Virus record (IMG/VR): IMGVR_UViG_2713897279_000003
Source of the DNA: an uncultured virus (IMG/VR IMGVR_UViG_2713897279_000003)
Taxonomy: Duplodnaviria; Heunggongvirae; Uroviricota; Caudoviricetes
Length of the DNA: 64,000 nucleotides
Direction: 5' to 3' (one strand)
The translations under genes and the position numbers were made by a program. Positions 10,413-37,046 of this stretch are shown piece by piece. Numbering within the stretch: the first letter of the stretch is position 1; each line of letters starts with the position of its first letter. The notes under the pieces were generated by a model that did not search any database, had not been told where the DNA came from, and was given only the letters and a program-made list of their open reading frames with translations.

Positions 10413-12404
10413 CTATAGCCATGAGTATGAAATAGCGTGAAGTTCTTCCCCGCTTTTCAGAACGACTTTAACAACTAACTCTTTACCCTCTGGGAGTTTA
10501 TCTAAACTAACCAGCTTATCTTTTTCAATTCTCATCCAATCTTCTCCGTTATTTCGGGACACATAATATTCTAATCCTTCCGATTTAGAGGGATCTTGTG
10601 TCATAATGTCTTGATCTTTATTTTCAAAGAATGCAAGTTCATTCATAGTACCATGCCAATTATTAGGAACACTGGTAATTGTTCGAATAGCCCAGTATCG
10701 ATAGGAACCAATGCTATCAAACTCATATTCTTTCGGTGTCGCAGTTGGGCTTCCATTTACTTCAATTGCACCATGATTTCCAGAGTAAACAATTTTCCAA
10801 TTTGTTTTATCATTGGAACAGATAACTTGAAATTCTACAAGACTAACGGAAGATATATATACCTTCTCAATATGTTTTGGACTATCTTTAAAATCTAATC
10901 CCACATAGTAGTTGCGCCAGTTGTAATAGTAATGTGCATGAGTTGCACTAAGTTCTTCATTCCCATCAAACACCTGCCAAGGCTGTGTTCCTTTGAAGTT
11001 AGTTATAGATGTCTCCCAAATAACATTTAAACTATTAGATGTATTGGAAGTCAGAGGGGCTTCAGGATATTTTATCCATCCACTTTCTCTCGTTGCTTTT
11101 CCGGATATCCCTGACAATAGAAATAGTTTTGGCATCATATCTAATTGCTCGCTTACTGTAATAAATGTAGCTGGTTGTTGAGCATTACTTTGCTTCACCT
11201 TATGCTTCTTTTTATCGTATGTAATATTCTCAGATTTTTCAACGTCAATACCTGAGTTATCACCAAAATCATCTATAATCATATCTTTCATGTTATAGCG
11301 TTTTTTATCCAAAAGAGAATTTACCCTTAAATTATGCTTATTGAGATTTATATGGATACTCGTTTCTAAGTCTGATACACGATTAGGCAATGGGCGGATT
11401 TTGTATTTAATTTTAATAGAATCAATAGTTGGAAGAACTTCTCCATTTTTAAACTGCACTTTTAATTTCAGTTTCTTTCCATTCCTTGACTTAATATTCT
11501 TCCCATCCAATTCTATAAAATCAGAATCACTATTAGTCTTAGTTGAAACTTTAATATTTCCTGTCCCTACAACTTCAATAGCCGATAGCTCTAAGAAGTC
11601 ATTTCCTAAATCAATCTCTTGGGATATCCATTCTCCTTGATTAGTATATTCTAATGAAGGGCCAAGCATTTTTAATTCACCGATCTCTAATGATTTATCT
11701 CCATTGTTAGCAAGAACTGTTAATCTATAATATTGATAAGCTGTTCTATTTTGCGTGAAAAATCTTTTGGGATTTCCTGCTTTCCATCCTGATATGGCAG
11801 CTTCTAGTCCTATCATATTCCATGTCTCTCCATCATTGCTTCCATGGAATTTAAAATCTCTTGGTGCTCTAGTTTCTTCTAATCCATTGTCACCAAAGAC
11901 AGGGTGTATTTCATATGATGTAACTACTACTGGGCTATCATATTTATATTGTAACCATGTGTCTGATACAAAGTCTTCTACAAACCATCTGTCTTCCCAA
12001 GAATTCGTGGTACCATTGAATGCTCGATATGCAGGCCCGTTTGAAAGTGATTCTGCACTTGCACTTACTACTCCACTTGGTGCTGTATTACTTGTCATAA
12101 CTGGAATTAAATTAACGTTAGACTCTCCGCCGCTTTCTGTTTTATTTAATGAAAGCACACCTGTATCTGCATTTAGTCCAATAAAAGTTCCCTTTGCAAA
12201 ATCATCTTTTGTGTCAATGATAATTTCTTTATCTATCAATCCTTGTCGTTTCTTTTCTAATTCATCTAGACGAGCTTTAACATTAGCAAAAGTTCCTTTT
12301 ATATCCTTGTCTCCATTTTTGTAGTCACCTACACCTAGACGCTTATTCAGTGAGTCTAAATTTTTTCTTCCTTGCATTGCTTTAGAATAACTTACGATAT
12401 CCAT
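10413..12404 (-). CDS. Appendage scaffold protein with two F5/8 type C (discoidin)-like domains
   Basis: IPVMTSN...AYRAFNG...WLQYKY...FHGSNDGETW...YQYYRL...EIGELKM, plus a second copy (WQVFDG...SNDKTNW...YRYWAI). Paralog of 24479..25897. Confidence 0.85.
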   Translation of the reverse strand: MDIVSYSKAMQGRKNLDSLNKRLGVGDYKNGDKDIKGTFANVKARLDELEKKRQGLIDKEIIIDTKDDFAKGTFIGLNADTGVLSLNKTESGGESNVNLIPVMTSNTAPSGVVSASAESLSNGPAYRAFNGTTNSWEDRWFVEDFVSDTWLQYKYDSPVVVTSYEIHPVFGDNGLEETRAPRDFKFHGSNDGETWNMIGLEAAISGWKAGNPKRFFTQNRTAYQYYRLTVLANNGDKSLEIGELKMLGPSLEYTNQGEWISQEIDLGNDFLELSAIEVVGTGNIKVSTKTNSDSDFIELDGKNIKSRNGKKLKLKVQFKNGEVLPTIDSIKIKYKIRPLPNRVSDLETSIHINLNKHNLRVNSLLDKKRYNMKDMIIDDFGDNSGIDVEKSENITYDKKKHKVKQSNAQQPATFITVSEQLDMMPKLFLLSGISGKATRESGWIKYPEAPLTSNTSNSLNVIWETSITNFKGTQPWQVFDGNEELSATHAHYYYNWRNYYVGLDFKDSPKHIEKVYISSVSLVEFQVICSNDKTNWKIVYSGNHGAIEVNGSPTATPKEYEFDSIGSYRYWAIRTITSVPNNWHGTMNELAFFENKDQDIMTQDPSKSEGLEYYVSRNNGEDWMRIEKDKLVSLDKLPEGKELVVKVVLKSGEELHAISYSWL

Positions 12405-15524: not shown

Positions 15525-15541
15525 ACTACTACCCACCTTTT

Positions 15542-16816: not shown

Positions 16817-16831
16817 GTAGCTTCCTCCTTT

Positions 16832-17953: not shown

Positions 17954-17968
17954 GCTGTTTTCTCCTTT

Positions 17969-18796: not shown

Positions 18797-18810
18797 ATTG
18801 TTTATCCTCC

Positions 18811-20790
18811 TTACTGAATGGCTTTCCACACTCCATCTTTATATGACTTTACTATGTTATTATCTTGCACTAATAAAAGACGAGTTGCGATTGTAAACAC
18901 ATTTCCCAATGTGTAATCTGATTTTCCTCCTTTATTGTCTTTTGCTCTTACCCGAAACTGTGCTTTGTCTGTATCTAAACTTGGAAGAATAGTAGCATAA
19001 GAATTTACTGTTACACTAGATTCCACTGAAACCCAATCGGAGCCATTATATAGTTCCACCTCATATGAGATAGAATCTCCTTCTTTGTCAGTTGATACTG
19101 TCCATTCTAGTTGTACTGATTCCCCTGAGAGATTCATACTGTTTACGGTCGGCTGTTTTACAAATAGCTCTGGCTTAGTTGGTGGCTCATTTCCTTCACT
19201 ATATCCAATTACAGTGAAAGGGACACCATACTCTGGGTAATCTCCATCTATTGAGCTAGGAACTGTATTGTTTACATTATAGAAATACTTATGCATAGTT
19301 GTAGCACCATATTTATGCTCTGCAATTCGAGTAAAGCCAACTCGTGGGTTTTCATAATTATTTCTAACTTGCTGTAATAATACGACCTCTTCTTGTGGAC
19401 TTGGGATAGGAGTAGAAAACCCAATTGTCTTTTCAATACCACCAGTAAGAAACTTACCATTTCGATATACATTGATGGAACCAAATCCTAATCCTGTTGG
19501 TGATCTTGGCGTATCAACTGATACCGTTGAATCAATATCTTCTTTCGTTGCAATCTTATAAAAAAGAGATGATCCCATTGAACCATTACTTGTCGCTTCT
19601 GCAACTTTAGTATAACCAGATGGACTTATAATTGCAGAGTTCGAAATAGACCCTGTTGATTGTGCCATGACAACAATTAAATCCCCTACCTGGATGCCAC
19701 GTGGAACAGGCCAAGAAGTTATATAATTTATTCCACTATAGCTAGTAGCAGGAGCTGTAGTGCCAATGTGCTTTATCTTATTCTCCCTTTTAATATTTTC
19801 ATCTAAGATAATAAACTTTGTTCGTGAGTCCCAGCTATTTCTATATATTGTTACATTTGTATTTACAGGAACTATTGATGAACACATTTTTCCGTAACGT
19901 TCTGTAAGAGGAAGTAATGCACTGCTTCCGTCATTAAGAGAACTAGCTGCAATAACAGCAAACCTACTATTAACCCTAGTTGTAGTAACAGGAGGAAAAG
20001 AAGATCCACTTTTATCAACCATGCCATAGTTTACAACTTTAGCATCTGCAACAGACATCAATGACATCTCAATCCAACTTAATTGGGCTGTTGCGATACG
20101 TATCGGATACTCTTCCGGTTCATACTTTGTTGCTACTTTATACAACATAGTAGAAAATTCACTAGTATTTGTTTTTATAAATCCATCATTAGAATCAATA
20201 ATGGCATCATTATAATGATTGACATATAAAACTAGGACATCTCCTTCTTGTGTTCCTGTAGGTTTGGCGATTGTCTTAATACCTTTTGCAGAAGCAGTTG
20301 TACTCCTTACTCTTATTCCTTTAGGCTCATCTAATGTGTAATCAAACTTCCATTCTGGAAACTGAAGTGCGCTTCTCCCATACTTTCGACTAGCTGATTT
20401 AATTTCTAGATGCTCGTTTGATGCTCCATTAAATGGATCTCTGCTTCCGTGTGTACCATTATCATAATTAGAAGAGTCTTGTGTTATTGTCGTAAGACTT
20501 AGCCTATATGTTTTTCCTGAAAGCATTTTCACACCCTGAAAATTTTTCCATATATTAGGACTAATACTTACACGATTGTTATCTGCTGTTTCTTCTGTAC
20601 TTGAAATATCATAAACAATTTGTCCTGTTGATTCGTCGGCAATTCGAAGCCGATATACAATTCCTCCATATCCTCCGTTATACGTTTGAACATACACCTT
20701 ATTCATGATGATGTTTGTTTTAGGTGTTACCAATACATCGTAAGCAGCACCCCAGTTACCTTCTGATCTTGGTACTAATAATGAAGGCAT
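18811..20790 (-). CDS. Multidomain appendage protein (three beta modules, Fn3, C-terminal motif)
   Basis: ATG 20790 follows AAGGAG. Two P.G.Q.GD.[LI]V...YK[VI]AT modules. Ends LLLVQDNNIVKSYKDGVWKAIQ. Confidence 0.8.
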   Translation of the reverse strand: MPSLLVPRSEGNWGAAYDVLVTPKTNIIMNKVYVQTYNGGYGGIVYRLRIADESTGQIVYDISSTEETADNNRVSISPNIWKNFQGVKMLSGKTYRLSLTTITQDSSNYDNGTHGSRDPFNGASNEHLEIKSASRKYGRSALQFPEWKFDYTLDEPKGIRVRSTTASAKGIKTIAKPTGTQEGDVLVLYVNHYNDAIIDSNDGFIKTNTSEFSTMLYKVATKYEPEEYPIRIATAQLSWIEMSLMSVADAKVVNYGMVDKSGSSFPPVTTTRVNSRFAVIAASSLNDGSSALLPLTERYGKMCSSIVPVNTNVTIYRNSWDSRTKFIILDENIKRENKIKHIGTTAPATSYSGINYITSWPVPRGIQVGDLIVVMAQSTGSISNSAIISPSGYTKVAEATSNGSMGSSLFYKIATKEDIDSTVSVDTPRSPTGLGFGSINVYRNGKFLTGGIEKTIGFSTPIPSPQEEVVLLQQVRNNYENPRVGFTRIAEHKYGATTMHKYFYNVNNTVPSSIDGDYPEYGVPFTVIGYSEGNEPPTKPELFVKQPTVNSMNLSGESVQLEWTVSTDKEGDSISYEVELYNGSDWVSVESSVTVNSYATILPSLDTDKAQFRVRAKDNKGGKSDYTLGNVFTIATRLLLVQDNNIVKSYKDGVWKAIQ

Positions 20791-20808: not shown

Positions 20809-20842
20809 AAAGAAAGGCGACCATTCAAAGAATGAATCGCCT
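20809..20842 (-). terminator. Intra-operon hairpin/weak terminator
   Basis: AGGCGATTCATTC-TTT-GAATGGTCGCCT-TTCTTT, identical to 32646..32679. Confidence 0.6.
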
Positions 20843-22046
20843 ATATTACTTCTATTTTTGTAATGGACTTATACTTTGTTCGGTCAATTGGAATCTCAAA
20901 TAACTTCCCGTCTGTATACGTTTCATTTAGAATGCCATCTATTTTATGAATGGCATTTACTTTTACGTCCGAACCAACTTGTGCTAAGAACTCATTCATC
21001 ACGAGCTTTGATTCTGGACTTGCTTGGTCAAACTCAAATGTCTTCTTATCTCCAACTTGTGCGCCACCGTTAAGTACTGCACGAAACTTCAAGAATCTTT
21101 TTTGCGGAAGAGTAGTTGGATTAAAGAATGCATAAGGACTAAATGTAATGCCATCATCAGAAGCACTTACTTCTACTCTTACAGAAGCAGGTGGTTTCCC
21201 ATATGTGCTGCCCAATGTTTGAACTGGCGTTGGAGCAGGTACCAATTGGTTGCCAATGAATTTTAATTTTGTTGGCTCATCTAATGTCGTATAAAAAACA
21301 GTAGAAAGAGTTCCACTATAAGGTCTATTATCCCAGTAATCTAATACATTACTTGCAATCAATCCAGGTGTATTCATGTTTGTTTCAACATACAAGTCAT
21401 TTGACTGTGTTAAGAATATAGTTCCATATCCCGATTTCTTAATAGACTTTACATTGCTTGCGAGTCTTGTAAAAGATCCGGCTGGTGATGTTGATCCGTA
21501 TAATTCACCAGCCTGATTCAGATACCTAAATCCCCTATAGTTACTATTTGCACCAGACGCTGCAACATCTTGCACCGCATCTACTGAATAGAAAGTTGCA
21601 CTAGGAGCTGTACCAAAATTTGCATTTGCAAAATATCCTTTTCCATCCAGTGACTTATAGGCAACAGTATAGTTTTCTAATACAACATAATCTACATTTG
21701 TTGCTACTTGTCTTTTGTAAGATGTACTGCCAATGTTAGCCAACCAAAGTGTGTTGTCATTCTTTACGTAAGCTAACATTTGATCTTCAGCTGAATCGGC
21801 TTGCTTTACATCTGTATCCATAAGCACTAATGTGCTTCCTCGCCAAACATATAAGCTACCACTCATTGAAATGTATCCGTCACAAGCGTTATCATAATCC
21901 TCATTACTAATAACAGCTTGCTTTACATTTGTTGCTACTTTTGTCCAACTACTATTTGAAAAGCGGTGTGTAGTGCTGTCACCTGTGCTTCCAGTTATTG
22001 CATACATATCATTGTTTACATCTACGTATCCAAATACACATGACAT
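20841..22046 (-). CDS. RCC1/BLIP-II-like beta-propeller repeat protein with conserved C-terminal module
   Basis: Repeats VATNVKQA, YVKNDNTLW, LASNVKSI, FLTQSNDLY, IASNVLDY. C-terminal SDDGITFSPY...LPQKRFLKFRA. Paralog of 32678..33904. Confidence 0.75.
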   Translation of the reverse strand: MSCVFGYVDVNNDMYAITGSTGDSTTHRFSNSSWTKVATNVKQAVISNEDYDNACDGYISMSGSLYVWRGSTLVLMDTDVKQADSAEDQMLAYVKNDNTLWLANIGSTSYKRQVATNVDYVVLENYTVAYKSLDGKGYFANANFGTAPSATFYSVDAVQDVAASGANSNYRGFRYLNQAGELYGSTSPAGSFTRLASNVKSIKKSGYGTIFLTQSNDLYVETNMNTPGLIASNVLDYWDNRPYSGTLSTVFYTTLDEPTKLKFIGNQLVPAPTPVQTLGSTYGKPPASVRVEVSASDDGITFSPYAFFNPTTLPQKRFLKFRAVLNGGAQVGDKKTFEFDQASPESKLVMNEFLAQVGSDVKVNAIHKIDGILNETYTDGKLFEIPIDRTKYKSITKIEVI

Positions 22047-22061
22047 AATATCTCTCCTTTC

Positions 22062-22399
22062 TTATCCGAATTTAACAGTAATGCCTGTTACTTTTTGCAT
22101 GCCGCTTCCTAAGTCAACGCCTTCTGATTCCCATGTACCAGAACCTACAAATGCTTGTGGTCCAATTTGTCGAAGCTGAATATTTCCTTCTTTAAATTCC
22201 GCATCATCAAACATGCCCTTGGTTAAATCAACATCATAAAGCTCTTTAACTTGTAAGTTAGATATTTGAGCTTCTATCCAATCTAACCTCTCATCAACAG
22301 AGTCAAATCGACCTTCTGCTCCCTTTCCTACTATCATTTCATTAAGCTGTTTAATTTCCTGAGCCACTTACTTGCCTTACTGAAAGAAATAATCTCCAT
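22062..22399 (-). pseudogene. Frameshifted paralog of 34977..35318 (or sequencing error)
   Basis: ATG 22399 with GGAGGTG RBS gives MEIISFSKAS. AGT-AA-GTG then lacks one A relative to the paralog (AGT AAA GTC), and this frame stops at TGA 22334-22336. The remainder (22062..22367) is intact in another frame. Confidence 0.75.
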
Positions 22400-26977: not shown

Positions 26978-27820
26978 TTATTTCACCTCTACTTTCTTTA
27001 TATTTGTTATCGATGCAAGATTTAATTCAGATACCTTACCTGAACCTAAATCCACAGTATTCGAGAAAGATAATTCTTGTTTTAATTCCCCTGCACCTGA
27101 AGAAGCAATAATTTTCATACTATCAGATTCACATGTATCTATTACCATATCATGCATTTTATATTTTTCTGATTTAAGTAATGCATTACTTTTAAAGTTG
27201 AGTTTCGCCATATTAATTGCATTGATTCGCTCTAGCTCTTTTAAACGTCCCTCAATCGTTAAGCTGTTTGTTTCAATCTTGATACTATGTAATTTAGGTG
27301 AGTTACTTACAACTGGCACTGTCTCATATGCTAATTTATCAATTAATAGCGTATCTGTAACTGCATGTAAGTCTAAATAATATGTTAATCGTAATTTCAT
27401 TCCAGATAAAAAAGGCTTCCATACTTCCTGTGTAACGCCATTAAATGTAGCAATATCCATACCCTTTGACTTTACATCATCTAAATCACTTATATCAACA
27501 GGATGCCAAGATACACCATTAAATGCTTTCCATGTTGTACCACTGTCATTAGATGCAATTATCTTGAGGACACTTTCATTTTGTACAGTTCCCATTAATG
27601 TAAAGGACTTAATAGGCTTCTCAAATATCATATCTGTTTCTTGCATAATTAATTGTCGCTTTGGTATAGCAGTTACATTTACAGACGCACTATTAATGCT
27701 TGTATCTTTTGTGAGAACTAGTATTTTAATATTATCTGATTCTAATTGATTCCATGCTGATTCAGGAATTACACTCAAATCTGTCATACCATGTTGCTTA
27801 AATTCATCTACTGTGGGCAT
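26978..27820 (-). CDS. Appendage scaffold ('socket') protein with coiled-coil segment
   Basis: Near-identical to the C-terminal 280 aa of 13884..15524. GGAGGA spacing favours ATG 27820 over 27826. Confidence 0.85.
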   Translation of the reverse strand: MPTVDEFKQHGMTDLSVIPESAWNQLESDNIKILVLTKDTSINSASVNVTAIPKRQLIMQETDMIFEKPIKSFTLMGTVQNESVLKIIASNDSGTTWKAFNGVSWHPVDISDLDDVKSKGMDIATFNGVTQEVWKPFLSGMKLRLTYYLDLHAVTDTLLIDKLAYETVPVVSNSPKLHSIKIETNSLTIEGRLKELERINAINMAKLNFKSNALLKSEKYKMHDMVIDTCESDSMKIIASSGAGELKQELSFSNTVDLGSGKVSELNLASITNIKKVEVK

Positions 27821-27832
27821 ATTCATTCCTCC

Positions 27833-29125
27833 CTATATGGTTTGCCATGTGTTATTTTTATATGTTTTTATTATATCACCATCTTGAATAAGTAATAATT
27901 GTTTTCGTACAGTAAAGACTGCGCTCTCTTGATATGCAGATGCAGCTGTTTTATCATCTACTGCTCTTACTCTTATTTTAGCATTTGTAATATTTAATCC
28001 ATCGGGAAGCTTATATTCAACTGATACATCTGTTGTCTTTGAAGCAATAGGCATCCAAGAAGAGCCGTTGTAGAAATCTACATCGTATATAATTGCATCC
28101 CCCTCTGGATCCGTAGATGCATCCCACGATACTGTAATGGTTTCACCTGTTAGGTATACACTATTTGTGCTTGCGGTTACCTTTAGGTTTGTTGGCACTG
28201 TTGGCGGAAGACTAGCAAGCTGAGTCAATTGAATCGTAACATAACCATCTCCTGCATTATATCCTTTCATTGTAAATGCTGTAACTCTATCCGTATTTGC
28301 AGCTGAGCCACCGCCACCGCCGCCATATGAATTTTCACGTCCAGCAGCACCACCGGAATAACCACCACCACCTCCGCCGCCAAAATAACCATTACCAGCA
28401 CCGCCACCAAATCCACCTATTGCACCCTGACTTTGCGCAGATGAGTATGATAATCCTCCTTCTCCTCCTTTACGGAAAGCTCGCCCGCCTTGAGTATAGT
28501 TTCTTGAGTTCAATGCTGTTTCCCAACTTACTATAATATTATCTGTACCATACGAAACAGATTCTCCATCTCCATAGAATCCACCACCACCACCGCCAGG
28601 ACAGGAAGCAGCAGGTGCAGCTCTTCCTCCATTTCCATTAGTTCCACCAACTGGTGCAGAAGAATTTGGACCAAGTGTTCCTGATAATCCATTTGATGCA
28701 GTTGCTCCATTTCCAGTTCCACCAGAACCAGAACCAGCGCCACCACCACCACCGGCAACAATAATCATCTCAGATGAAGATAACAGTGACCCGATTGCAG
28801 TAAAGCTACCGCCACCGCCGCCACCACCATATGTATAACCCTTTCCTTGTTGGCCAACTAAAATTTGAACAACTTCATCTTTTTTCAAGGCTACTGTTCC
28901 AGTCATGATTATACCTTGTCCACCAATCCCTCTTCCATCTCCACTTCCTCCTTTTGCTCCTGCTACCGTAAAATTATATTTCCCTGAGATCGGAACAACC
29001 CATTTCATAATTGTTCCTGAACGACCAGTAGATGTTGGATTAAATTGTAGAATATCATTTAATGCCAATGACTCTGGATACTTTGTAACACCTGAATATG
29101 CACTATTAACCTGATGCGTTACCAT
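27833..29125 (-). CDS. Glycine-rich receptor-binding-like protein with Fn3 domain
   Basis: GAKGG, IIVAGGGGG, GGFGGGAG, GDGYVTI. The Fn3 domain is nearly identical to that of 15542..16816. Confidence 0.85.
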   Translation of the reverse strand: MVTHQVNSAYSGVTKYPESLALNDILQFNPTSTGRSGTIMKWVVPISGKYNFTVAGAKGGSGDGRGIGGQGIIMTGTVALKKDEVVQILVGQQGKGYTYGGGGGGGSFTAIGSLLSSSEMIIVAGGGGGAGSGSGGTGNGATASNGLSGTLGPNSSAPVGGTNGNGGRAAPAASCPGGGGGGFYGDGESVSYGTDNIIVSWETALNSRNYTQGGRAFRKGGEGGLSYSSAQSQGAIGGFGGGAGNGYFGGGGGGGYSGGAAGRENSYGGGGGGSAANTDRVTAFTMKGYNAGDGYVTIQLTQLASLPPTVPTNLKVTASTNSVYLTGETITVSWDASTDPEGDAIIYDVDFYNGSSWMPIASKTTDVSVEYKLPDGLNITNAKIRVRAVDDKTAASAYQESAVFTVRKQLLLIQDGDIIKTYKNNTWQTI

Positions 29126-29139
29126 ATAGTTTCCTCCCT

Positions 29140-30357
29140 TTAAATAGATTCCCAGTTTCCATCTTTATAAGTCTTTCTTATCTCTCCATCTTTAATTACA
29201 TATAACTGTTTTGCTACTGTAAATACATTACTCAACGAATATTCAGATGCTCCATTTTCACTGTCAGTTGCACGTACTCGTAGTTGTGCTTTATCTGTTG
29301 CAACAGATGGAATAATGCAATCATAATTTGTATCTATAATATTTTTTGCAATACTTGCCCATGTAGAGCCATTATAGAAATCTATTTCATATGCAATAGA
29401 ATTCCCCTCTGGATCAGTTGATGCAGTCCATTCTAATGGAACAATCTCATTAGACAGATTCATACTTTTAGAGATTGGCTGTTTTGTAAGTGATGGTTCT
29501 GTTGGTGGTTCATTTGCAGAGCCGACAAATGTAATTTCAATTCTTCCGTGACCACTATTTACACCTGGAGCATTATCCTGTTTACTTCCTGCGTTATAAG
29601 AGCCACCACCTCCCGCTGGAAAAGCCGCTGCATTTCCGCCACCAGTACCACCAGTATAACCACCTCCCCCACCGCCAGCAGAGAAACCACCGCCTCCTCC
29701 ACCGCCAAATCCACCTACAGTTATACCTTTTCCTTCAGTCCAAGATATTCCGCCTTGTCCACCAGAAACAAAGGAGTATCCATTCTTTCCTCCATATGCT
29801 GTTGAACTTGTGCCATCACTATAATATCCTCCTGCTCCCCCGGCACCAGTACCACCACCTGCATTTCCTCCTTGACCTTCTCCCCTTGATGATGGCCCGC
29901 TAGGAACAACACTGGCTAATTTTGTTATTTCACCTTGATACCCTGGCTTTGGATTGTTTGCACTATATTGAGTAACCCCTCCTCCTCCACCAGCAATTAA
30001 AAATGGAGTAGTTGTACCCAAAGAAATAAATGTGCCTCCTCCACCGCCGCCTTGATAGTAGTTATAAGTGTCTAATTCATAAGAGCCCATTTGGCCTATT
30101 AACAACCTAAATACTTGATCTTTTTTTAGAGTGAATTCGCCTTTCATTCTTGCTCCTTTTCCTCCGTACTGCAACTCACCTCCTTGTGCGCCCCACGCTT
30201 CCATTACATATATGCCATCATATGGGACTTTCCACTGAAGGATAGTTCCATTCTTACCAGTACTAGTATTATTAAAAATCATTTTATCTCCACGCTTTAA
30301 GTTAGTTGGAAATGCTGATGTTGCACTACCTGGTTGATTTATTGTATAAGTTGCCAT
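29140..30357 (-). CDS. Glycine-rich receptor-binding-like protein with Fn3 domain
   Basis: WGAQGG, GGKGARMKGEF, FLIAGGGGG, GGGGSYN, GHGRIEIT. Confidence 0.85.
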   Translation of the reverse strand: MATYTINQPGSATSAFPTNLKRGDKMIFNNTSTGKNGTILQWKVPYDGIYVMEAWGAQGGELQYGGKGARMKGEFTLKKDQVFRLLIGQMGSYELDTYNYYQGGGGGGTFISLGTTTPFLIAGGGGGVTQYSANNPKPGYQGEITKLASVVPSGPSSRGEGQGGNAGGGTGAGGAGGYYSDGTSSTAYGGKNGYSFVSGGQGGISWTEGKGITVGGFGGGGGGGFSAGGGGGGYTGGTGGGNAAAFPAGGGGSYNAGSKQDNAPGVNSGHGRIEITFVGSANEPPTEPSLTKQPISKSMNLSNEIVPLEWTASTDPEGNSIAYEIDFYNGSTWASIAKNIIDTNYDCIIPSVATDKAQLRVRATDSENGASEYSLSNVFTVAKQLYVIKDGEIRKTYKDGNWESI

Positions 30358-30372
30358 TGCATCTTCTCCTTT

Positions 30373-31347
30373 CTAAATAATTTTCCATATCCCATTCTTG
30401 TACGATTTCACTGTTTCCCCATCTCGTATGAGCAACATCTTATCGTATATAGAAAAGTCTTGGCTTTCTTTATAAGGTGATTTATTTCCTGCTGTATCTT
30501 TCGCTTGCACTCTTATCTTTGCATTAGCCGTATTTATATTACTTGGAACTACAATCGGAATTGATATATCTGATACGTTAGTTGCTACAGGCACCCATGA
30601 ACTTCCGTTGTACACATCAATATCATAAGTAATGGAATCTCCCTCTTGGTCAGCAGAAGCTCCCCAACTTAATTTTATACTTTCACCAGCTACATATAAT
30701 GACTCTTGAATTCCTGTAATATCACCAGGCTGTGTTGGCGGTTGATTCATCGTGACGATGGCAATACTAATACATTTGTCTGCGTTTGATACTGATGAGA
30801 TACCTGTTGTCCCTCCACCTGACATCCACTTATGTCCAGCAGAAGAAGAGGTAAAACTAACTATTCTAGTATTCCATGTCATTGACATTCCTGATGGAAT
30901 GGACATTGTTGATGACGAATGAGTAGTAAAAAATGATACATATAAAAAATCCATATCAAGCGAAATAGACACTGAACTTCCAGCATCCGGTCTACTATAA
31001 GATGTTTTAATTCCTAATTTTGTAGGCTGTCCACTATCAGTTGAAAAGTGTCCGATATTTACAGCAAACTCATCCTTAAAGTCAAAATCAAATACATACG
31101 ATGCAGGTTCATTACTAGTAGCTACCTTATACAAGACGGCATGAGAGTTGTATTTTACTCCTTTGGTATCTTCTAGTTTCTCCCAACCAGATGGATACCT
31201 AGTGATGGTTTCCCTACTACTCGTATGATTATCTGCTATAATATGTGCAACTAACAAGTCTCCTTCTAAGATTATCCCTGACGGACGAGAAACCGTTAAA
31301 GAATTTGTTAATGCACCTGCTGATGATTTTCCCTTAAAAATTATCAT
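30373..31347 (-). CDS. Beta-module protein with Fn3 and C-terminal motif
   Basis: PSGIILEGDLLVAHI...PSGWEKL...LYKVATSNEPASY module. C-terminus is shared with 17969..18796. Confidence 0.8.
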   Translation of the reverse strand: MIIFKGKSSAGALTNSLTVSRPSGIILEGDLLVAHIIADNHTSSRETITRYPSGWEKLEDTKGVKYNSHAVLYKVATSNEPASYVFDFDFKDEFAVNIGHFSTDSGQPTKLGIKTSYSRPDAGSSVSISLDMDFLYVSFFTTHSSSTMSIPSGMSMTWNTRIVSFTSSSAGHKWMSGGGTTGISSVSNADKCISIAIVTMNQPPTQPGDITGIQESLYVAGESIKLSWGASADQEGDSITYDIDVYNGSSWVPVATNVSDISIPIVVPSNINTANAKIRVQAKDTAGNKSPYKESQDFSIYDKMLLIRDGETVKSYKNGIWKII

Positions 31348-31374
31348 AATATTTATCCCCTTAATAAAATGTTT

Positions 31375-32628
31375 TTAAATAGATTTCCATACTCCATCTT
31401 TAAATGACTTTACTATGTTGTTATCTTGAATTAGAAATAACTTTTGTCTTGTTCTGAAAATAGCACTATACGAGTAATCGGAATATGCTCCTTTATCATC
31501 TTTCGCCCTTATCCTAAATTGAGCCACATCTGTATCTTTGTTTGTAATATTGAACCTTCTACTCGTGACCTTTATATCCTTTTCAAGAGAATACCAGTTT
31601 GAGCCATCTACAGTAAATTCCATTTCATATGAGATAGCATCGCCTTCTGGATCAGTGGAAGCATCCCAATTAATCTCAATAGAATCTCCATTTAAGCAGA
31701 GGCTGTTCTCTACAATTCCTAATACATTACCTGGTTTTGTTGGTGGTTGACTTGTAGGCGATAGCAATGTAATCTCTATTCTTCCGTGACCATTATTTAC
31801 ATCCCCACTATTATTTTGATTAGCCCCTATATTGTATGAGCCGCCACCTCCACCTCCATCTTCATAACCACCACCACCACCAGAATATCCGCCACCGCCG
31901 CCACCACGATGACCACCAGCACCACCACCACCAAATCCTCCGCTTATATTATTCCCTTGTCCTCCAGTTCCTCCATATCCACCATTTAAATAAGATTTAC
32001 CACCAGAACTAGAGCTTGCAGATGCGTTGCTGCAGTTGTTACCACCGTTTGTGTAAAATCCACCGCCGCCTGCACCATAACTACAAGATGATCCAGTTCC
32101 GCCATTTGTTGTTCTAGTACCAGAAGAACCTAAAGTTCCAGCACCGCCACCGCCACCATCAATACCACCTCGACCTGCTTGTGAATGGCCAAATGAACCA
32201 GTGTCCCCATTAATTGATGTGACGCCTCCAGAAGCTCTATTTCGACAATGACCCCCGCCACCGCCAGCAACAATTAATGGTATATTATTTCTTAAAACAA
32301 ATGTTCCCCCTCCGCCACCGCCAGAGTCGTTTGAACTACTTCCATCCTTATAGTTTTCACCCATTTGTCCAACTAATATCTTTATAACCTCATCTTTTTC
32401 TAAGACAAAATCCCCTTGCATTCTAGCGCCTTTTCCTGCATATGCTCCTCCGCCTTTTGCCCCCCATGCTTGCATGCGATATGAACCAGAATAAGGAACC
32501 TTCCAAGTTATAATTGTGCCACTATATCCTGTGTTTGTATTATTGATGACGATTATGTCTCCACCTTGCAGGCTAGATGGAAATGAAACCATTGCACTCC
32601 CTGAATTATTTGCTATATAAGTTGCCAT
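31375..32628 (-). CDS. Glycine-rich receptor-binding-like protein with Fn3 domain
   Basis: ATG 32628 follows GAGGAG. PLIVAGGGGG, GGFGGGGAGG. Ends LIQDNNIVKSFKDGVWKSI. Confidence 0.85.
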   Translation of the reverse strand: MATYIANNSGSAMVSFPSSLQGGDIIVINNTNTGYSGTIITWKVPYSGSYRMQAWGAKGGGAYAGKGARMQGDFVLEKDEVIKILVGQMGENYKDGSSSNDSGGGGGGTFVLRNNIPLIVAGGGGGHCRNRASGGVTSINGDTGSFGHSQAGRGGIDGGGGGAGTLGSSGTRTTNGGTGSSCSYGAGGGGFYTNGGNNCSNASASSSSGGKSYLNGGYGGTGGQGNNISGGFGGGGAGGHRGGGGGGYSGGGGGYEDGGGGGGSYNIGANQNNSGDVNNGHGRIEITLLSPTSQPPTKPGNVLGIVENSLCLNGDSIEINWDASTDPEGDAISYEMEFTVDGSNWYSLEKDIKVTSRRFNITNKDTDVAQFRIRAKDDKGAYSDYSYSAIFRTRQKLFLIQDNNIVKSFKDGVWKSI

Positions 32629-32645
32629 AATAACTCTCCTCTCAT

Positions 32646-32679
32646 AAAGAAAGGCGACCATTCAAAGAATGAATCGCCT
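32646..32679 (-). terminator. Intra-operon hairpin/weak terminator
   Basis: Identical copy of 20809..20842. Confidence 0.6.
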
Positions 32680-33904
32680 ATACCACTTCTATTTTTGAAA
32701 TGGACTTGTATTTTGTTCGGTCAACTGGTATTTCAAATAACACTACATCTGTATAACTATCATCTTTAACGCCATCTATTTTATAAACAGTTTTCATCTG
32801 TACATTAGCATCAACAGAAGAGATAAACTCATTTAGTACTAGCTTAGCTTCTGGACTTAATTGATCGAATTCAAATGCCTTCATCTCTCCAGTTTGAGTA
32901 CCACCATCAAGAATTGCACGGAATTTCAAAAATCTTTTTTGTGGAAGACTATTTGGATCAAAAAATGTATATGGACTAAATGTAATACCGTCATCAGAAG
33001 TGCTTACTTCTATTCTAGTATCAGCAGATATTCCATACGAGCTACCTATTGATTTAATTGGTGTTGGCGTAGAATTAGGACCACCTGCATTACCTTTCGC
33101 AACTTTTAATACAGTTGGGTTATCAAGCGTTGTATAAAATAAACCAGTTAATGAAGCTGCAAGAAGCATGTTTTCCCAGTAATCAGCAACGTTTGAAGCA
33201 ATTAATTGTAGCGTACCACCAGGAATTTGCTCATAATACAAATCATTTGAAAGCGTTAAAAATATGGAGCCCCTTCCCGCTTTCTTTACTGACTTTACAT
33301 TGTGCATAATTTTATAAAAGGTTGCACTCGGAACTGCACTTTCCGCTGTTCCATATAAGGTTCCATTAACATCAATGTACATATATCTCTTATAAGAGCC
33401 ATTCGAACCTGCCGCAGCGACATCTCGAACAGGTCCTTTATCAATAAACGATACATAAGGAGATGAAGTAAAATTTGTACTTACTGAAAAGAAACCTCTT
33501 CCATCCAATGTTTTATAAACCAATTGTTTGTTTGCTAATACAACATAATCAACATTATCTGCCACTTTATTTTTATAACTTGTATCTGATGCATTTGCCA
33601 TCCAGAGTGTATTATCATTTTTAACATAGGCTAGCATACGGTTCTCAGATGAATCCGCTTGCTTCACATTTGTATCAAAAAGGATTGCTGTTGTATTGCT
33701 ATTCCAAATATATAGATTGTTATCCATATCAATATATCCATCACAAGGTGAATCATAATCTTCATTACTAATAACAGCAGCCTTTACATTTGAAGCTGCT
33801 TTTGTCCATTGATTCATAGGAAAACTATGCCCTGAAGGACTTGTAGTGCCGGCCATTACATACATGTCATTATTCACATCCACGTATCCAAGGAAATAAG
33901 ACAT
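32678..33904 (-). CDS. RCC1/BLIP-II-like beta-propeller repeat protein with conserved C-terminal module
   Basis: Full-length paralog of 20841..22046. Confidence 0.75.
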   Translation of the reverse strand: MSYFLGYVDVNNDMYVMAGTTSPSGHSFPMNQWTKAASNVKAAVISNEDYDSPCDGYIDMDNNLYIWNSNTTAILFDTNVKQADSSENRMLAYVKNDNTLWMANASDTSYKNKVADNVDYVVLANKQLVYKTLDGRGFFSVSTNFTSSPYVSFIDKGPVRDVAAAGSNGSYKRYMYIDVNGTLYGTAESAVPSATFYKIMHNVKSVKKAGRGSIFLTLSNDLYYEQIPGGTLQLIASNVADYWENMLLAASLTGLFYTTLDNPTVLKVAKGNAGGPNSTPTPIKSIGSSYGISADTRIEVSTSDDGITFSPYTFFDPNSLPQKRFLKFRAILDGGTQTGEMKAFEFDQLSPEAKLVLNEFISSVDANVQMKTVYKIDGVKDDSYTDVVLFEIPVDRTKYKSISKIEVV

Positions 33905-33919
33905 AGTATTTCTCCTTTC

Positions 33920-34963
33920 TTATTCTATTTTGGTAATCGACTTATATTTTGAACGATTAATTGGGATTGCAAATAACTTCCCATCTGTGTATGCTTCATT
34001 TTTAATACCATCTATTTTATGAATGGCATTTACTTTTACGTCAGAACCTACAGATGATAAGAATTCATTTAATACTAGTTTTGTTTCTGGATTTTTTTGG
34101 TCAAACTCAAATACTTGCTTCTCCCCCATTTCTGTACCACCATCAATGATTGCACGGAACTTTAAGAATCTTTTTTGTGGAAGCTTACTTGAATTAAATA
34201 GTATATATGGACCAAATGTAATACCATCATCAGATTCAGCATATTCAACATCTACAGATCCACCAAGCTTAAATGAAAGATAGTTTGTATATCCAGATAA
34301 AGTTTGAAGTACATAACGCTTATTCGAACCATTTTCCCAAGTGTTGATATAAAAAGGCATAGAGGTTGCTTTAGTGTCACTTGAATTTAATCCATATCCA
34401 CTAAAATAGAATTCTATCTTATTTCTTTTAATGCGAATAGCAACAGGGAATCTATTAGATGAATTACTATAGTGTCCATAATATATCCAAATTAATGTAA
34501 CATTTTCATCAGAATAATATCTGCTATCAACTATCTTAGAATCAACACCATTAGAACCTTCAAAATCAAATGATATAACAGGATAAAAGCTGCCATTCAC
34601 GTAAGAGCGAGAAAAACCAGAATCGTAAGAAGCATTACTAAAGCTAGTAATTTCTTTATTGAAAAATTGTATACTACCTTCTGTGCTGATACCAATCCAT
34701 TTAGTAAAAGGGAAATCCTTTGAAAGCAAAGGTGTATGCATAATTAAATTCCCAATGCTATCATCACCCATTGCTGTACCAAATTTTGCATACGCCGGGT
34801 TCGTTGTAGTGCCAAACAAACCTAATGATATTTTTTCTTCATTAGCCCATTCAACCATTTTATTATACGCAGATGTAGACTCTAAATCGGTACTTAATTC
34901 ATAAGCACCGCTCATGACTTTAGAACCTTTACTTGTCTCATATGAAAAAGGTATACTTACCAA
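33920..34963 (-). CDS. Unique N-terminal beta domain plus the SDDGITF...LPQKRFLKFRA module
   Basis: TTG start with AAGGAGGTG RBS. The last ~110 aa are paralogous to 32678..33904 and 20841..22046. No block B counterpart. Confidence 0.8.
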   Translation of the reverse strand: MVSIPFSYETSKGSKVMSGAYELSTDLESTSAYNKMVEWANEEKISLGLFGTTTNPAYAKFGTAMGDDSIGNLIMHTPLLSKDFPFTKWIGISTEGSIQFFNKEITSFSNASYDSGFSRSYVNGSFYPVISFDFEGSNGVDSKIVDSRYYSDENVTLIWIYYGHYSNSSNRFPVAIRIKRNKIEFYFSGYGLNSSDTKATSMPFYINTWENGSNKRYVLQTLSGYTNYLSFKLGGSVDVEYAESDDGITFGPYILFNSSKLPQKRFLKFRAIIDGGTEMGEKQVFEFDQKNPETKLVLNEFLSSVGSDVKVNAIHKIDGIKNEAYTDGKLFAIPINRSKYKSITKIE

Positions 34964-34976
34964 ATGTCACACCTCC

Positions 34977-35318
34977 TTAATAATTCCTTTGAATTTTTAC
35001 ATCTAATATCTTTTGCATACCGCTTCCTAAGTCTATTACTTCAGATTCCCATACTCCTGATCCTACAAATGCTTGTGGTCCAATTTGACGAAGTTGAATG
35101 CTACCATCTTTGAACTCTGCATCATTAAATTGCCCCTTATTTAGATCCACTTCATATATTTCTTTTACTTGTAGATTTGACGCTTGAGCTTCTATCCAAT
35201 CTAACCTTTCATCGACAGAGTTAAATTGACCTTCCGCTCCCTCTCCTACTACCGTCTCATTAAGCTGCTTAATATCCTGAAAGACTTTACTTGCTTTACT
35301 GAAAGAAATAATCTCCAT
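34977..35318 (-). CDS. Small scaffold protein (coiled segment plus G.W.S...DLG half-domain)
   Basis: MEIISFSKASK...FNSVDERLDWIE...GSGVWESEVIDLG. GGAGGG RBS. Confidence 0.8.
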   Translation of the reverse strand: MEIISFSKASKVFQDIKQLNETVVGEGAEGQFNSVDERLDWIEAQASNLQVKEIYEVDLNKGQFNDAEFKDGSIQLRQIGPQAFVGSGVWESEVIDLGSGMQKILDVKIQRNY

Positions 35319-35329
35319 CTTAGTCCCTC

Positions 35330-36106
35330 CTATAGTACAATCACTGTAACAGATGTACCAACAGATTCATTTTTACTCGTATCCACTGATTTAAGTGTAA
35401 ATGTATGTTCTCCATTTGAAATGCCATTCAATACAATGGATGCACGTTTTGTGGTATCTAGTGGCGTCTTAATATTATCTATATAAACATTAATCTTATC
35501 TAAGTCAGCATCTGTAGAATTCACCCACTCCAGATTTACAACGCCTTGAGATGGAGAACTACCAACTAACCCTTTTATATCTGCAGGTGCCGTTACGTCC
35601 ACCTCTGTTCTAGTTTTAATACCTGTGATATTTCCTTTAGAATCATAAGAATAAGTTTTTGTTACAGTAACTTTTTGTCCTTTATTATTTGCAAATGTTT
35701 GAACTGATTTACTTAATTCACCTACCGCTAAATCTCGGTAAGCATACTCTACTATCATTTCTTTATCGCCTGTTGTAGTATGACGTATAATGTTTCCATA
35801 TTGCTCATCATACTCGAATTTTTCATCATAATCCCCAGATTCTGTGGTGCCTTTCAAGATTGCTGATTCTAAATCTCGTTTTATATTCTCAATACGCTGT
35901 ATTGTTAATATACCACCATTCTCATAACCTTGAATCAAGTCGTCAACAACAGCTCTTGTATTTGTATCAAACAAATCACTATTAATATGTGTAAAGCGTC
36001 CATAAACTGTATCATAGGTACCCATCAACTTAATAATGTCATCAATAATTTCGATTAAACTATCTTCTAAATCATACTTCTGTATCTTCGTTAAACTTCT
36101 ATTCAT
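35330..36106 (-). CDS. First gene of block A: YD-like hairpins plus Fn3
   Basis: Near-identical to 22411..23187. Confidence 0.85.
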   Translation of the reverse strand: MNRSLTKIQKYDLEDSLIEIIDDIIKLMGTYDTVYGRFTHINSDLFDTNTRAVVDDLIQGYENGGILTIQRIENIKRDLESAILKGTTESGDYDEKFEYDEQYGNIIRHTTTGDKEMIVEYAYRDLAVGELSKSVQTFANNKGQKVTVTKTYSYDSKGNITGIKTRTEVDVTAPADIKGLVGSSPSQGVVNLEWVNSTDADLDKINVYIDNIKTPLDTTKRASIVLNGISNGEHTFTLKSVDTSKNESVGTSVTVIVL

Positions 36107-36173: not shown

Positions 36174-37046
36174 CTAAATAACCTTTATGTTTTGAGGTAT
36201 AATTTGTTCATCCTCCAAAAGCTTATGATTTGTTAAGAGCACTGCCTCATTATTTAAATGCAGCATTAATATTTCAAAATCAACTATTTTATCATTAATA
36301 TTCATAATCTCTTGCACTAAGTCATTGTAAATAAAGCCTTGTCCCATCTCAAATTTGCCGAAATGTTCTTGAAGTTTATTTTGTGTTTCAAAAGATATAT
36401 ATGACTTTTGCTGTGCGCTCGTTGATTCATGAAATGCTAACTGCACCGTTATATCAATTGGGATTTCAATTGGTGTAATGATATTAGGACGACTTCCAAA
36501 AGCTTTTATCTTTGATATTTGTTCCCCTACATTATGAAGCACTTCTTCTTTCTCGTATCCATACTCGGGTATCACAATAAAACTAAAACTTCCCGTTCCA
36601 TGAGTATACTCTTTACCAATTACATCTCTTACGCCATTCACTGTTAAGCAAGCTAATCTAAGTGCTGTATGGTTTGCGGTAGCTGATGCAGGAACGATTT
36701 GTATTAATTCTGCACGATACATATCATCATCTATTAACTTTTCTGTTAATATACCATCAGATCCACGAACTTGATGCATTCTTCGTTTATAACTAAACAG
36801 TCCACCAATTAAATCTAAATGCTCATTCGTTGCTTTACTAATAAATCCTTGATTTAATACTTCTTGTGCAAAATCATATAACGATATTCTTTTAGGATCA
36901 TCTCCTGAACCAATTTCAGGAGCAATTGCTTCTGTAATAGAACGGGCAATACTTCCTGCTGAGAAATTTGTAATAGGCGTATTCTCAGATATAGAAACAC
37001 AAGCATCTCTTATAATTTCTTGCGCACTACGTTTTAATAACATCAT
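36174..37046 (-). CDS. Baseplate J/gp47-like wedge protein
   Basis: ITNFSAGSIARSITEA, ATNEHLDLIGGLF, DDDMYRAEL, LTVNGVRDV, GTGSFSFIV. Follows the gp25-like gene. Confidence 0.85.
   Translation of the reverse strand: MMLLKRSAQEIIRDACVSISENTPITNFSAGSIARSITEAIAPEIGSGDDPKRISLYDFAQEVLNQGFISKATNEHLDLIGGLFSYKRRMHQVRGSDGILTEKLIDDDMYRAELIQIVPASATANHTALRLACLTVNGVRDVIGKEYTHGTGSFSFIVIPEYGYEKEEVLHNVGEQISKIKAFGSRPNIITPIEIPIDITVQLAFHESTSAQQKSYISFETQNKLQEHFGKFEMGQGFIYNDLVQEIMNINDKIVDFEILMLHLNNEAVLLTNHKLLEDEQIIPQNIKVI

What the first reader, a model, noticed from the sequence alone, without database searches (positions are those of the whole stretch)
32678..35318. Second split domain: small 113-aa protein plus alternative partners carrying the other half
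34977 ends in KGQFNDAEF..G.IQL...GVWESEVIDLG, which parallels KGTFIGLN...GVLSL...GEWISQEIDLG in 10413. In 10413 and 62612 that beta-sandwich continues within the same chain (VST...LKLKVQF; YFRS..W..KYIQVKV). Here a matching second half (SDDGITF.PY...KRFLKFRA) is carried by two different downstream genes in block A (33920 and 32678) and one in block B (20841), each behind a variable N-domain. This is the same design as the plug motif: one socket with several partners.
Basis: inference. Interest (0 to 1): 0.7.

Follow-up and report, generated by a model that had tools for sequence, protein, structure and literature searches.

The report
Phage tail protein split mid-domain
A phage tail gene that is one piece in related phages is here cut in two in the middle of a folded domain, so a small anchor protein probably has to snap together with two or three different partner proteins that carry the other half.

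Summary
34977 (113 aa) matches residues 1-110 of a family of phage tail proteins. The last ~113 aa of 33920, 32678 and 20841 match residues ~119-234 of the same family. In 49 of 59 cluster representatives, and in 12 of 13 viral loci, both parts lie in one chain, directly after a homologue of 35330. The break sits at a natural insertion hot spot: 13 of 59 representatives carry a ~150-aa insert there, and it is an F5/8 type C domain in all 4 scanned that have an insert at this site only.

In an AlphaFold model of an uninterrupted relative, one jelly-roll spans residues ~52-163, across the break. The C-module folded alone gives pTM 0.40 and no fold match (best Z 2.5).

The split is a clean gene boundary: TAA, a Shine-Dalgarno site, then TTG. 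It recurs in seven loci of Bacillus cereus-group elements and is under purifying selection (dN/dS 0.09-0.15).

The parallel with 62612 is not supported. The second half of 10413 is not detectably the same module.

I read this as a new variant of the anchor-plus-receptor-binding-protein design.

The parts
34977..35318 (-). Small gene (113 aa). It holds the N-terminal helical module (residues ~1-54) plus the first half of the jelly-roll (~55-112), and ends exactly at insertion site 2 of the family.
   Evidence: HMM n1 9e-33 and n2 7e-9. phmmer finds 59 relatives, most of them longer single chains. phrog_34867 at 5e-66.
34964..34976 (-). 13-nt spacer between the TAA stop of 34977 and the TTG start of 33920. 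It holds AAGGAGGTG (the first A is the last base of the stop codon). There is a TGA in the downstream frame two codons before the TTG.
   Evidence: Read directly from the sequence. The frames differ (13 nt), so read-through cannot join the two genes.
34262..34963 (-). 33920 N-domain (residues 1-234), of no known family. Topologically it sits where relatives carry a site-2 insert.
   Evidence: No Pfam hit. The Atlas search gave no lead. Only P0001-P0003 and the L001 349-aa protein share this domain.
33920..34261 (-). 33920 C-module (residues 235-347): the second half of the jelly-roll (Cbeta, ~45 aa) plus a C-terminal tail module.
   Evidence: HMM cm 8e-24, residues 235-347. hhalign 99.6%.
33026..33904 (-). 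32678 N-domain (residues 1-293), repeat-rich and possibly a beta-propeller.
   Evidence: No Pfam hit. Weak Atlas lead to RCC1-type clusters, score 0.79, below the reliable range.
32678..33025 (-). 32678 C-module (residues ~294-408).
   Evidence: HMM cm 9e-26. 58% identical to the 33920 module.
22062..22399 (-). Block-B copy of the small gene. The ATG is at 22399, and a 1-nt deletion after codon 11 shifts the frame. The ORF listing reports only the GTG-start 101-aa ORF 22062-22367.
   Evidence: The gene is an intact 112-aa ORF in G001 and G066. The deletion is also present in contigs of runs X1 and X2 and absent in X6.
20841..21188 (-). 20841 C-module (residues ~287-401). The N-domain of 20841 (21189-22046) is of the 32678 type.
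   Evidence: HMM cm 1e-26. 73% identical to the 33920 module.
35330..36106 (-). Conserved upstream neighbour (258 aa), directly downstream of the baseplate-J-like gene 36174-37046.
   Evidence: An ORF with the same N-terminal TKI[LQ]..DL motif ends just before the family gene in 12 of 13 viral loci; L010 was not examined by my filter. Baseplate_J / phrog_6 hits for 36174.
10413..12404 (-). Paralogue with the same N-terminal helical module and first jelly-roll strands in one chain, with an F5/8 type C domain at insertion site 1.

Best explanation
This is a gene fission of a conserved phage tail/baseplate appendage protein.

The ancestral protein has three parts:
- an N-terminal helical module;
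- a jelly-roll beta-sandwich with two loops that accept whole inserted domains;
- a C-terminal tail module.

In this Bacillus cereus-group element the gene is cut at the second insertion loop. 34977 keeps the helical module and the first half of the sandwich. Each partner gene (33920, 32678, and 20841 in block B) starts with what is topologically the inserted domain, and continues with the two missing sandwich strands and the tail module.

I infer three further steps:
1. The two polypeptides reassemble non-covalently by completing the shared sandwich.
2. The small protein supplies the attachment to the baseplate.
3. The variable N-domains of the partners are the exposed, probably receptor-binding, heads.

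Block A has two partner genes behind one small gene, and the block-B small gene is frameshifted here. So 34977 may serve up to three partners.

Shown: homology of both halves to single-chain relatives, the position of the break, separate translation signals, conservation and purifying selection.
Inferred: trans-assembly, the attachment role, receptor binding and partner sharing.
For: 1. Both halves belong to one family.
- Of 59 phmmer representatives of 34977, 49 carry the C-module (i-E <= 1e-3) in the same chain.
- 9 of these are uninterrupted 225-234-aa proteins.
- 12 of 13 viral loci have n1, n2 and cm in one ORF. L004 and L005 are identical. L007 and L008 keep only the first ~50 cm positions.
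- Only L001, 94% identical to the window, is split: 113 + 349 aa.

2. The break is an insertion hot spot.
- 13 of 59 representatives have a ~150-aa insert between n2 and cm.
- All 4 with an insert at this site only (among the 12 proteins I scanned) are F5/8 type C above Pfam's cut-off.

3. The break lies inside one modelled domain.
- AF2 of the uninterrupted P0033: mean pLDDT 83.6, with blocks on both sides of the break at 86-97.
- All 50 listed VIA rows align model residues ~46-165 as one unit. Best is 9nwi_Y: Z 6.8, rmsd 2.9, 107 aligned. 34 chains reach Z >= 5.
- Relatives that swap the tail module keep the first ~45-50 cm positions.

4. The C-module alone is not a whole domain. pTM is 0.40. 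No chain reaches Z >= 5, the best is 2.5, and only residues 1-54 align.

5. The two genes are separate. TAA, a 13-nt spacer with AAGGAGGTG, then TTG, with a TGA in the downstream frame.

6. The split is kept and constrained.
- The small gene lies directly upstream of one or two C-module genes in 7 of 7 loci: window blocks A and B, L001, G001 A and B, G066 A and B.
- 11 small-form clusters at 65-100% identity; 9 of them are 112-113 aa. There are also 110-113-aa forms at 49-53% identity.
- dN/dS is 0.09-0.15 at dS up to 0.88, and 0.06-0.14 in the beta part.

7. The partners' C-modules are conserved (mean pairwise identity 0.69-0.71) while their N-domains vary (0.45).
Against:
- The two long strands of the C-module stay at pLDDT above 90 when it is folded alone, so a single-chain model cannot show dependence on 34977.
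- The fold matches are middling (Z 5-6.8), a range the tool warns may reflect only a common arrangement. Foldseek against the PDB gave nothing at E <= 1e-3.
- I could not inspect coordinates, so strand pairing across the break is inferred from aligned ranges.
- All seven split loci with known context are close relatives from one lineage. The context of the diverged short forms P0023, P0024 and P0034 is unknown.
- The block-B small gene is frameshifted in this window. At least one copy is therefore dispensable, decaying, or made in an N-terminally truncated form.
Confidence: 0.6

Rival explanations
1. The fission happened, but the halves no longer meet. The C-module proteins fold and attach on their own or through other proteins. 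34977 is then an independent small baseplate protein with a truncated sandwich.
For: The two C-module strands keep pLDDT above 90 alone. No binding test was possible. G066 carries the 32678-type N-domain on a different C-terminal attachment motif, so these heads can use other anchors.
Against: The small gene and a C-module gene are adjacent in 7 of 7 loci. The half-sandwich of the small gene is under purifying selection. The C-module alone gives pTM 0.40 and no fold match. No N-half homologue is found in the partners.
Confidence: 0.2
2. The C-module is a complete autonomous domain, for instance a circular permutation in which its later strands replace those of the N-half. That would make the resemblance to a split superficial.
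For: By eye, the later part of the module (FEFDQ...KLVLNEF, DGKLFEIPIDR..YKSITKIEV) resembles the first strands of such sandwiches. This is my reading of the sequences.
Against: In uninterrupted relatives the same later part coexists with the N-half strands in one chain. VIA rows for the whole model cover ~46-165, not 120-234. The module alone matches no complete fold.
Confidence: 0.1
3. One polypeptide is still made, by read-through, frameshifting or bypass at the 34977/33920 junction.
For: The genes are only 13 nt apart.
Against: The frames differ. A TGA lies in the downstream frame two codons before the start. A strong Shine-Dalgarno site and a TTG start are present. 32678 and 20841 have their own starts further away.
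Confidence: 0.03
4. The split is a recent nonsense or assembly defect in a decaying prophage.
For: The block-B small gene does carry a 1-nt deletion.
Against: The same end point (110-113 aa) is kept from 100% down to 49% identity. dN/dS is 0.09-0.15. The split is seen in several independent assemblies.
Confidence: 0.03

Closest known systems
Uninterrupted single-chain homologues (unnamed family; the window's halves correspond to phrog_34867 and the C-terminus of phrog_22575), e.g. P0033, P0037 (named by its source as a hypothetical protein of Priestia megaterium) and viral loci L002-L013
   Same: Same N-terminal helical module, same sandwich, same tail module, and the same position after a 35330-like gene.
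   Different: They are one polypeptide. The variable domain, if present, is an internal insert rather than the N-terminus of a second gene.
Anchor / adaptor receptor-binding systems of podophages: K1-5 gp37 with gp46 and gp47, G7C gp66 with gp63.1, and truncated-anchor variants in Klebsiella phages (passages of PMC6872550)
   Same: A conserved anchor protein carries one or several exchangeable receptor-binding proteins encoded next to it.
   Different: There the second protein docks through a short conserved N-terminal peptide onto a T4gp10-like domain. Here the conserved part of the partner is C-terminal, and the junction runs through one beta-sandwich. No T4gp10-like domain was found (no Pfam hits).
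Split distal tail protein proposed for KP36-like Klebsiella phages (passages of PMC6872550)
   Same: A tail protein that is one chain in a reference phage is divided between two genes, one of them fused to the receptor-binding protein.
   Different: That split is described as lying between two domains (A and B), not inside one domain.
Phage 812 baseplate arm: scaffold-protein linkers fill the gaps between arm-segment dimers to make continuous seven-stranded sheets (passages of PMC13433997)
   Same: Baseplate parts are held together by completing a beta-sheet between different polypeptides. A chain of that entry (9euf_0) is the second-best structural match of the whole model: Z 6.6, rmsd 2.7, 97 aligned.
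   Different: The proteins are different. There is no evidence there of a fission, or of alternative partners for one half-domain.
Donor-strand complementation in chaperone-usher pili (recalled, no call)
   Same: An incomplete beta-sandwich is completed by strands of another polypeptide.
   Different: One strand is donated between like subunits to build a fibre. Here about half a jelly-roll would be supplied, by a product of a former single gene.
Invertible tail-fibre segments of Mu and P1 (recalled, no call)
   Same: One constant N-terminal part is combined with alternative variable parts.
   Different: There the choice is made by DNA inversion and yields one covalent chain at a time. Here all the partners are separate genes that can be made together.

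Membership tests
Helical-module + jelly-roll + tail-module family (uninterrupted relatives; phrog_34867 / phrog_22575) | N-terminal helical module and first sandwich strands (HMM n1) | tested here: met
   34977 at 9e-33, positions 1-79. phrog_34867 at 5e-66.
Helical-module + jelly-roll + tail-module family | Second N-half block (G.WES..DLG...; HMM n2) | tested here: met
   34977 residues 82-109 at 7e-9.
Helical-module + jelly-roll + tail-module family | C-module (S.DG.tF ... R[YF].KFR ... tail module; HMM cm) in the same chain | tested here: not met
   Absent from 34977. Present in the separate genes 33920 (8e-24), 32678 (9e-26) and 20841 (1e-26). That absence from the same chain is the fission itself.
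Helical-module + jelly-roll + tail-module family | Position directly after a 35330-like gene, downstream of baseplate J | tested here: met
   (12 of 13 viral loci; L010 not examined).
Jelly-roll / CBM-like beta-sandwich fold | Structural superposition on solved jelly-rolls over most of a domain | tested here: inconclusive
   VIA Z 5.0-6.8 with 80-107 aligned residues to phage tail proteins, Eph ligand-binding domains, CBM6/35 and Cry domain III. Foldseek PDB gave nothing at E <= 1e-3. One BFVD match at 1.3e-6.
F5/8 type C (discoidin) domain | Pfam PF00754 above the gathering score | tested here: not met
   No hit in 34977, 33920, 32678 or 20841. It is met in 10413 (38.8 bits) and in the site-2 inserts of P0025, P0026, P0027 and P0030.
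RCC1-like beta-propeller (32678 and 20841 N-domains) | Pfam RCC1 repeats, or a reliable structural match | tested here: inconclusive
   No Pfam hit at E <= 0.01. Atlas feature score 0.79 to RCC1 clusters, below the reliable range. The domain was not folded.
Anchor-branched RBP systems (T4gp10-like docking) | T4gp10-like domain in the anchor, and a conserved N-terminal docking peptide in the second RBP | tested here: inconclusive
   No Pfam or PHROG annotation of that kind. The partners' N-termini differ between types. No dedicated profile was available.
Chaperone-usher donor-strand complementation | Ig-like pilin lacking its last strand, with chaperone and usher genes | not tested
   Considered only as a mechanistic analogy. 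Nothing in the window suggests pilus genes.

The most novel reading that the evidence does not exclude
The phage uses natural protein-fragment complementation as a multiplexing device. One half-domain 'socket' protein (34977) accepts any of several 'cartridge' proteins whose C-terminal half-domain completes the same jelly-roll. Different receptor-binding heads could then be mounted on one baseplate site and exchanged by cassette recombination. The recombination joint lies about 10 codons before the end of the small gene, where three tail types track the type of the next gene.
Probability: 0.4. Interest if true: 0.7.

Novelty: new variant of a known kind. Interest (0 to 1): 0.55.

Why it matters
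Exchangeable receptor-binding proteins on a constant anchor are a known theme. The known joints are docking peptides or boundaries between domains.

Here the joint would run through the middle of a single beta-sandwich, at a loop that relatives use for whole-domain insertions. That links three things: domain insertion, gene fission, and the birth of a modular anchor/partner system. It also gives a natural split point for a jelly-roll scaffold.

If the halves do reassemble, the pair could serve as a small, genetically encoded way to attach chosen binding domains to phage tails. It would also help explain how host-range modules are shuffled in large Bacillus phages and plasmid-prophages.

If they do not reassemble, this remains a well-documented fission with little wider consequence.

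Tried and rejected
No binding verdict exists in either direction.
- The phage record collection gave no match by DNA or by protein for 34977 or the C-module.
- The search for related loci in genome contigs with A4 failed for lack of a conserved stretch. The smaller alignment A6 found only one named plasmid record, with both blocks.
- The metagenome scan gave one short contig (L022, 1781 bases) and no context.
- The genome search at family level found matches in 2 of 104 scored genomes.
- The contexts of the diverged short forms P0023, P0024, P0034, P0039, P0055, P0058 and P0074 could not be fetched. The cluster look-up gave only contig lengths and one source name.
- Foldseek against the PDB gave nothing at E <= 1e-3.
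- The profile search of PDB sequences gave a best E of 0.045, to ribosomal protein S20, which I judge to be chance.
- The Atlas search gave no lead for the 33920 N-domain and a sub-threshold RCC1 lead for 32678.
- 62612 as a member of the same domain is rejected.
- The second half of 10413 as the same C-module is not supported.
- Read-through fusion is rejected from the junction sequence.
- The search of earlier findings returned nothing for this genome.
- Literature: 'gene fission' + 'tail fiber' + 'bacteriophage' gave 0 papers. 'strand complementation' + 'receptor-binding protein' + 'bacteriophage' + 'baseplate' gave 0 papers. 'split' + 'tail fiber' + 'two open reading frames' + 'phage' gave 5 papers; I read passages of one. 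So I found no description of this split in the searched library, which omits most subscription journals.
- My early guess that the element is related to phage 0305phi8-36 came from recall and was not tested. The sections of PMC2147016 that I read do not mention this family.
Full report
SETTING. All genes of the window lie on the minus strand. The region is the tail and baseplate part of a large myovirus-like element. It has a tail sheath (55006, phrog_16991), baseplate W-like and J-like genes (37056 and 36174; Pfam Baseplate_J, phrog_6), and then two tandem blocks of appendage genes. Block A begins at 35330 and block B at 22411. A scan of species genomes found block A at 100% protein identity on a 145-kb plasmid record of Bacillus thuringiensis, by the title the tool printed. 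The nearest held genome shares 72% of the window's sampled words.

THE OBSERVATION. The last ~113 residues of 33920, 32678 and 20841 are 58-73% identical to each other behind different N-domains. 34977 resembles 10413 in two collinear pieces: residues 1-78 with 10413 1-88 (E 7e-5), and 75-109 with 10413 243-278 (E 0.017). These two pieces flank the F5/8 type C domain of 10413.

SINGLE-CHAIN RELATIVES. This is the decisive evidence. An exhaustive phmmer search with 34977 found 59 cluster representatives. I classified them with HMMs built from nine uninterrupted members: n1 = positions 1-80, n2 = 84-116, cm = 119-234.
- 9 are uninterrupted 225-234-aa proteins with n1, n2 and cm in a row.
- 25 carry an insert between n1 and n2 (site 1).
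- 4 carry an insert between n2 and cm (site 2).
- 9 carry inserts at both sites.
- 3 end after n2 without cm (P0023 113 aa, P0024 110 aa, P0034 262 aa).
- 4 end after n1 (80-97 aa).
- 5 are unclear.
In all, 49 of 59 have cm in the same chain as the N part. The site-2 inserts of all four site-2-only proteins are F5/8 type C domains above Pfam's cut-off; I scanned 12 proteins in that call.

THE SAME PROFILES ON THE WINDOW. n1 and n2 hit 34977 (9e-33 and 7e-9) and the block-B copy. cm hits only 33920, 32678 and 20841 (8e-24 to 1e-26). Profile-profile comparison of the uninterrupted family with the C-module alignment gives 99.6% probability over 111 columns. So 34977 ends exactly at site 2, and the partners resume exactly after it. 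Their N-domains stand where relatives carry an insert.

SYNTENY. In IMG/VR, 13 loci encode a relative. In 12 of them n1, n2 and cm lie in one ORF of 225-519 aa. L004 and L005 are identical, and L007 and L008 keep only the first ~50 cm positions before a different C-terminus. In 12 loci the ORF follows a 35330-like gene; L010 was not examined for this. Only L001, 94% identical to the window, is split, into 113 + 349 aa.

THE SPLIT STATE IN CLOSE RELATIVES. In two held genomes the split recurs in both blocks:
- G001 block A: 113 + 347 + 408 aa. Block B: 112 + 410 aa.
- G066 block A: 112 + 399 aa. Block B: 112 + 410 aa.
The small gene therefore lies directly before one or two C-module genes in 7 of 7 loci. 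All seven belong to one lineage.

IS IT A REAL GENE BOUNDARY? 34977 ends with TAA. Thirteen bases later a TTG starts 33920, preceded by AAGGAGGTG. The frames differ, and a TGA lies in the downstream frame two codons before the start. A word-indexed search found 11 clusters of small forms at 65-100% identity. Nine of them are 112-113 aa and two are N-terminally shorter gene calls. They sit on contigs of 131-219 kb. P0023 and P0024 (49-53% identical) end at the same place. Between the block A and block B copies dS is 0.88 and dN/dS is 0.11-0.15. Between orthologues dN/dS is 0.09. In the beta part alone it is 0.06-0.14. The split is therefore old relative to these divergences, and the half-domain is under constraint.

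IS THE BREAK INSIDE ONE DOMAIN? I folded the uninterrupted P0033 with a 37-row alignment. Mean pLDDT was 83.6 and pTM 0.57. Ten-residue blocks score 86-97 on both sides of the break, which lies at about residues 113-118.
- Foldseek against the PDB found nothing at E <= 1e-3.
- The exhaustive VIA search gave 34 chains at Z >= 5. All 50 listed rows align model residues ~46-165 as one unit.
- The best rows are a Pseudomonas phage tail chain (9nwi_Y; Z 6.8, rmsd 2.9, 107 aligned) and a phage 812 baseplate chain (9euf_0; Z 6.6, rmsd 2.7, 97 aligned). Eph ligand-binding domains, CBM6/35 modules and Cry domain III follow.
- BFVD gave one match at 1.3e-6, with 29% identity over 110 columns.
These Z values are middling, so the fold class (jelly-roll, CBM-like) is tentative. 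The span of the domain is consistent across rows. It also agrees with natural variants that replace the tail module but keep the first ~45-50 cm positions.

I folded the C-module of 33920 alone with a 49-row alignment. Mean pLDDT was 73.6 and pTM 0.40. Two long strands score above 90 and the middle is poor. VIA then found no chain at Z >= 5; the best is 2.5, only 32 chains reach Z >= 2, and only residues 1-54 align. So the module does not model as a closed autonomous domain. This does not prove that it needs 34977.

MECHANISM. The best reading is that the small protein and each partner rebuild the sandwich in trans. The N-terminal helical module would then be the attachment device. It is shared by six window proteins: 34977, 22062, 8775, 23384, 24479 and 10413 (n1 hits at 1e-8 to 9e-33). 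The partners' N-domains would be exposed heads, standing where relatives place carbohydrate-binding discoidin domains. The C-modules are conserved (mean pairwise identity 0.69-0.71) and the N-domains are not (0.45).

The last ~10 residues of the small protein are its only variable part (0.37, against 0.71-0.74 for the rest). They come in three types. In the seven loci with context they track the type of the next gene: ILDVKIQRNY before the 347/349-aa type, and ITNIEMKIK or VTGIEIKFG before the 32678 type. DNA similarity between the blocks also stops about 10 codons before the stop. This could reflect either cassette exchange or co-adaptation of the joint.

WHAT IS NOT SUPPORTED. 62612 has no detectable relation to the family (hhalign probability 0.9%). 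The continuation of 10413 is not detectably the same C-module.

COMPARISON WITH KNOWN SYSTEMS. [quoted passage not shown] I read passages of PMC6872550 for these. In phage 812, baseplate proteins complete each other's sheets; I read passages of PMC13433997. What differs here is that the joint lies within one domain, at an insertion loop, and that the ancestral uninterrupted state is documented. My three literature searches found no description of this. The library omits most subscription journals.

VERDICT. The fission is well supported (about 0.9). Reassembly in trans is likely (about 0.6). Sharing of one small protein among several partners is plausible (about 0.4-0.5).

Noticed in passing
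window 22062-22399 (-): The block-B copy of the small gene has its ATG at 22399 and a 1-nt deletion after codon 11 (AAA to AA near 22367). Only a GTG-start 101-aa ORF remains. Relatives G001 and G066 have an intact 112-aa gene. Contigs of runs X1 and X2 carry the deletion (X1 may be the source sample); the X6 contig has the extra base.
   Followed up: yes
window 13884-15557 versus 27833-29125 and 26978-27826 (-): A second fission/fusion polymorphism. 13884 (557 aa) holds a glycine-rich domain, the 'plug' motif (residues 252-272, 81% identical to the end of 27833) and then residues 276-557, 94.7% identical to the whole of 26978. It is one gene in block B and two adjacent genes in block A. The equivalent is fused in G001 and split in G066.
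   Followed up: partly
L020 2537-3775 (G066): A 412-aa protein starts with the 32678-type N-domain but ends in the plug motif instead of the C-module. The same head can therefore be mounted through either of two attachment devices.
   Followed up: no
proteins P0039, P0055, P0058, P0074: These 80-97-aa relatives end right after the first block (n1), at the other insertion hot spot, where 10413 and 25 representatives carry an insert. They may be fissions at site 1. Two lie on contigs of 32 and 95 kb. Their contexts could not be fetched.
   Followed up: partly
window 8775, 10413, 23384, 24479, 22062, 34977 (-): Six proteins share the N-terminal helical module (MD.[IV]S..KA ... F..V..RLD), three per block. 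This suggests a common attachment site used by several appendage proteins.
   Followed up: partly
window 34977-35010 and 22062-22095 (-): Similarity between blocks A and B, at both DNA and protein level, stops about 10 codons before the stop of the small gene. The tail of the small protein comes in three types.
   Followed up: partly
protein P0023: The 113-aa relative at 53-55% identity is named by its source as a Campylobacter jejuni protein, on a 39-kb contig. That is an odd host for a family otherwise seen in Bacillus-type elements, and may be a contaminant contig.
   Followed up: no
window 15542-18829 and 27833-32661 (-): This is a run of genes with glycine-rich domains followed by an FN3-like segment and the ~21-aa C-terminal plug motif (L.L[IV].D....K.[YF]K.G.W..I). 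My regular expression caught 4 of them; by eye, more carry it.
   Followed up: no
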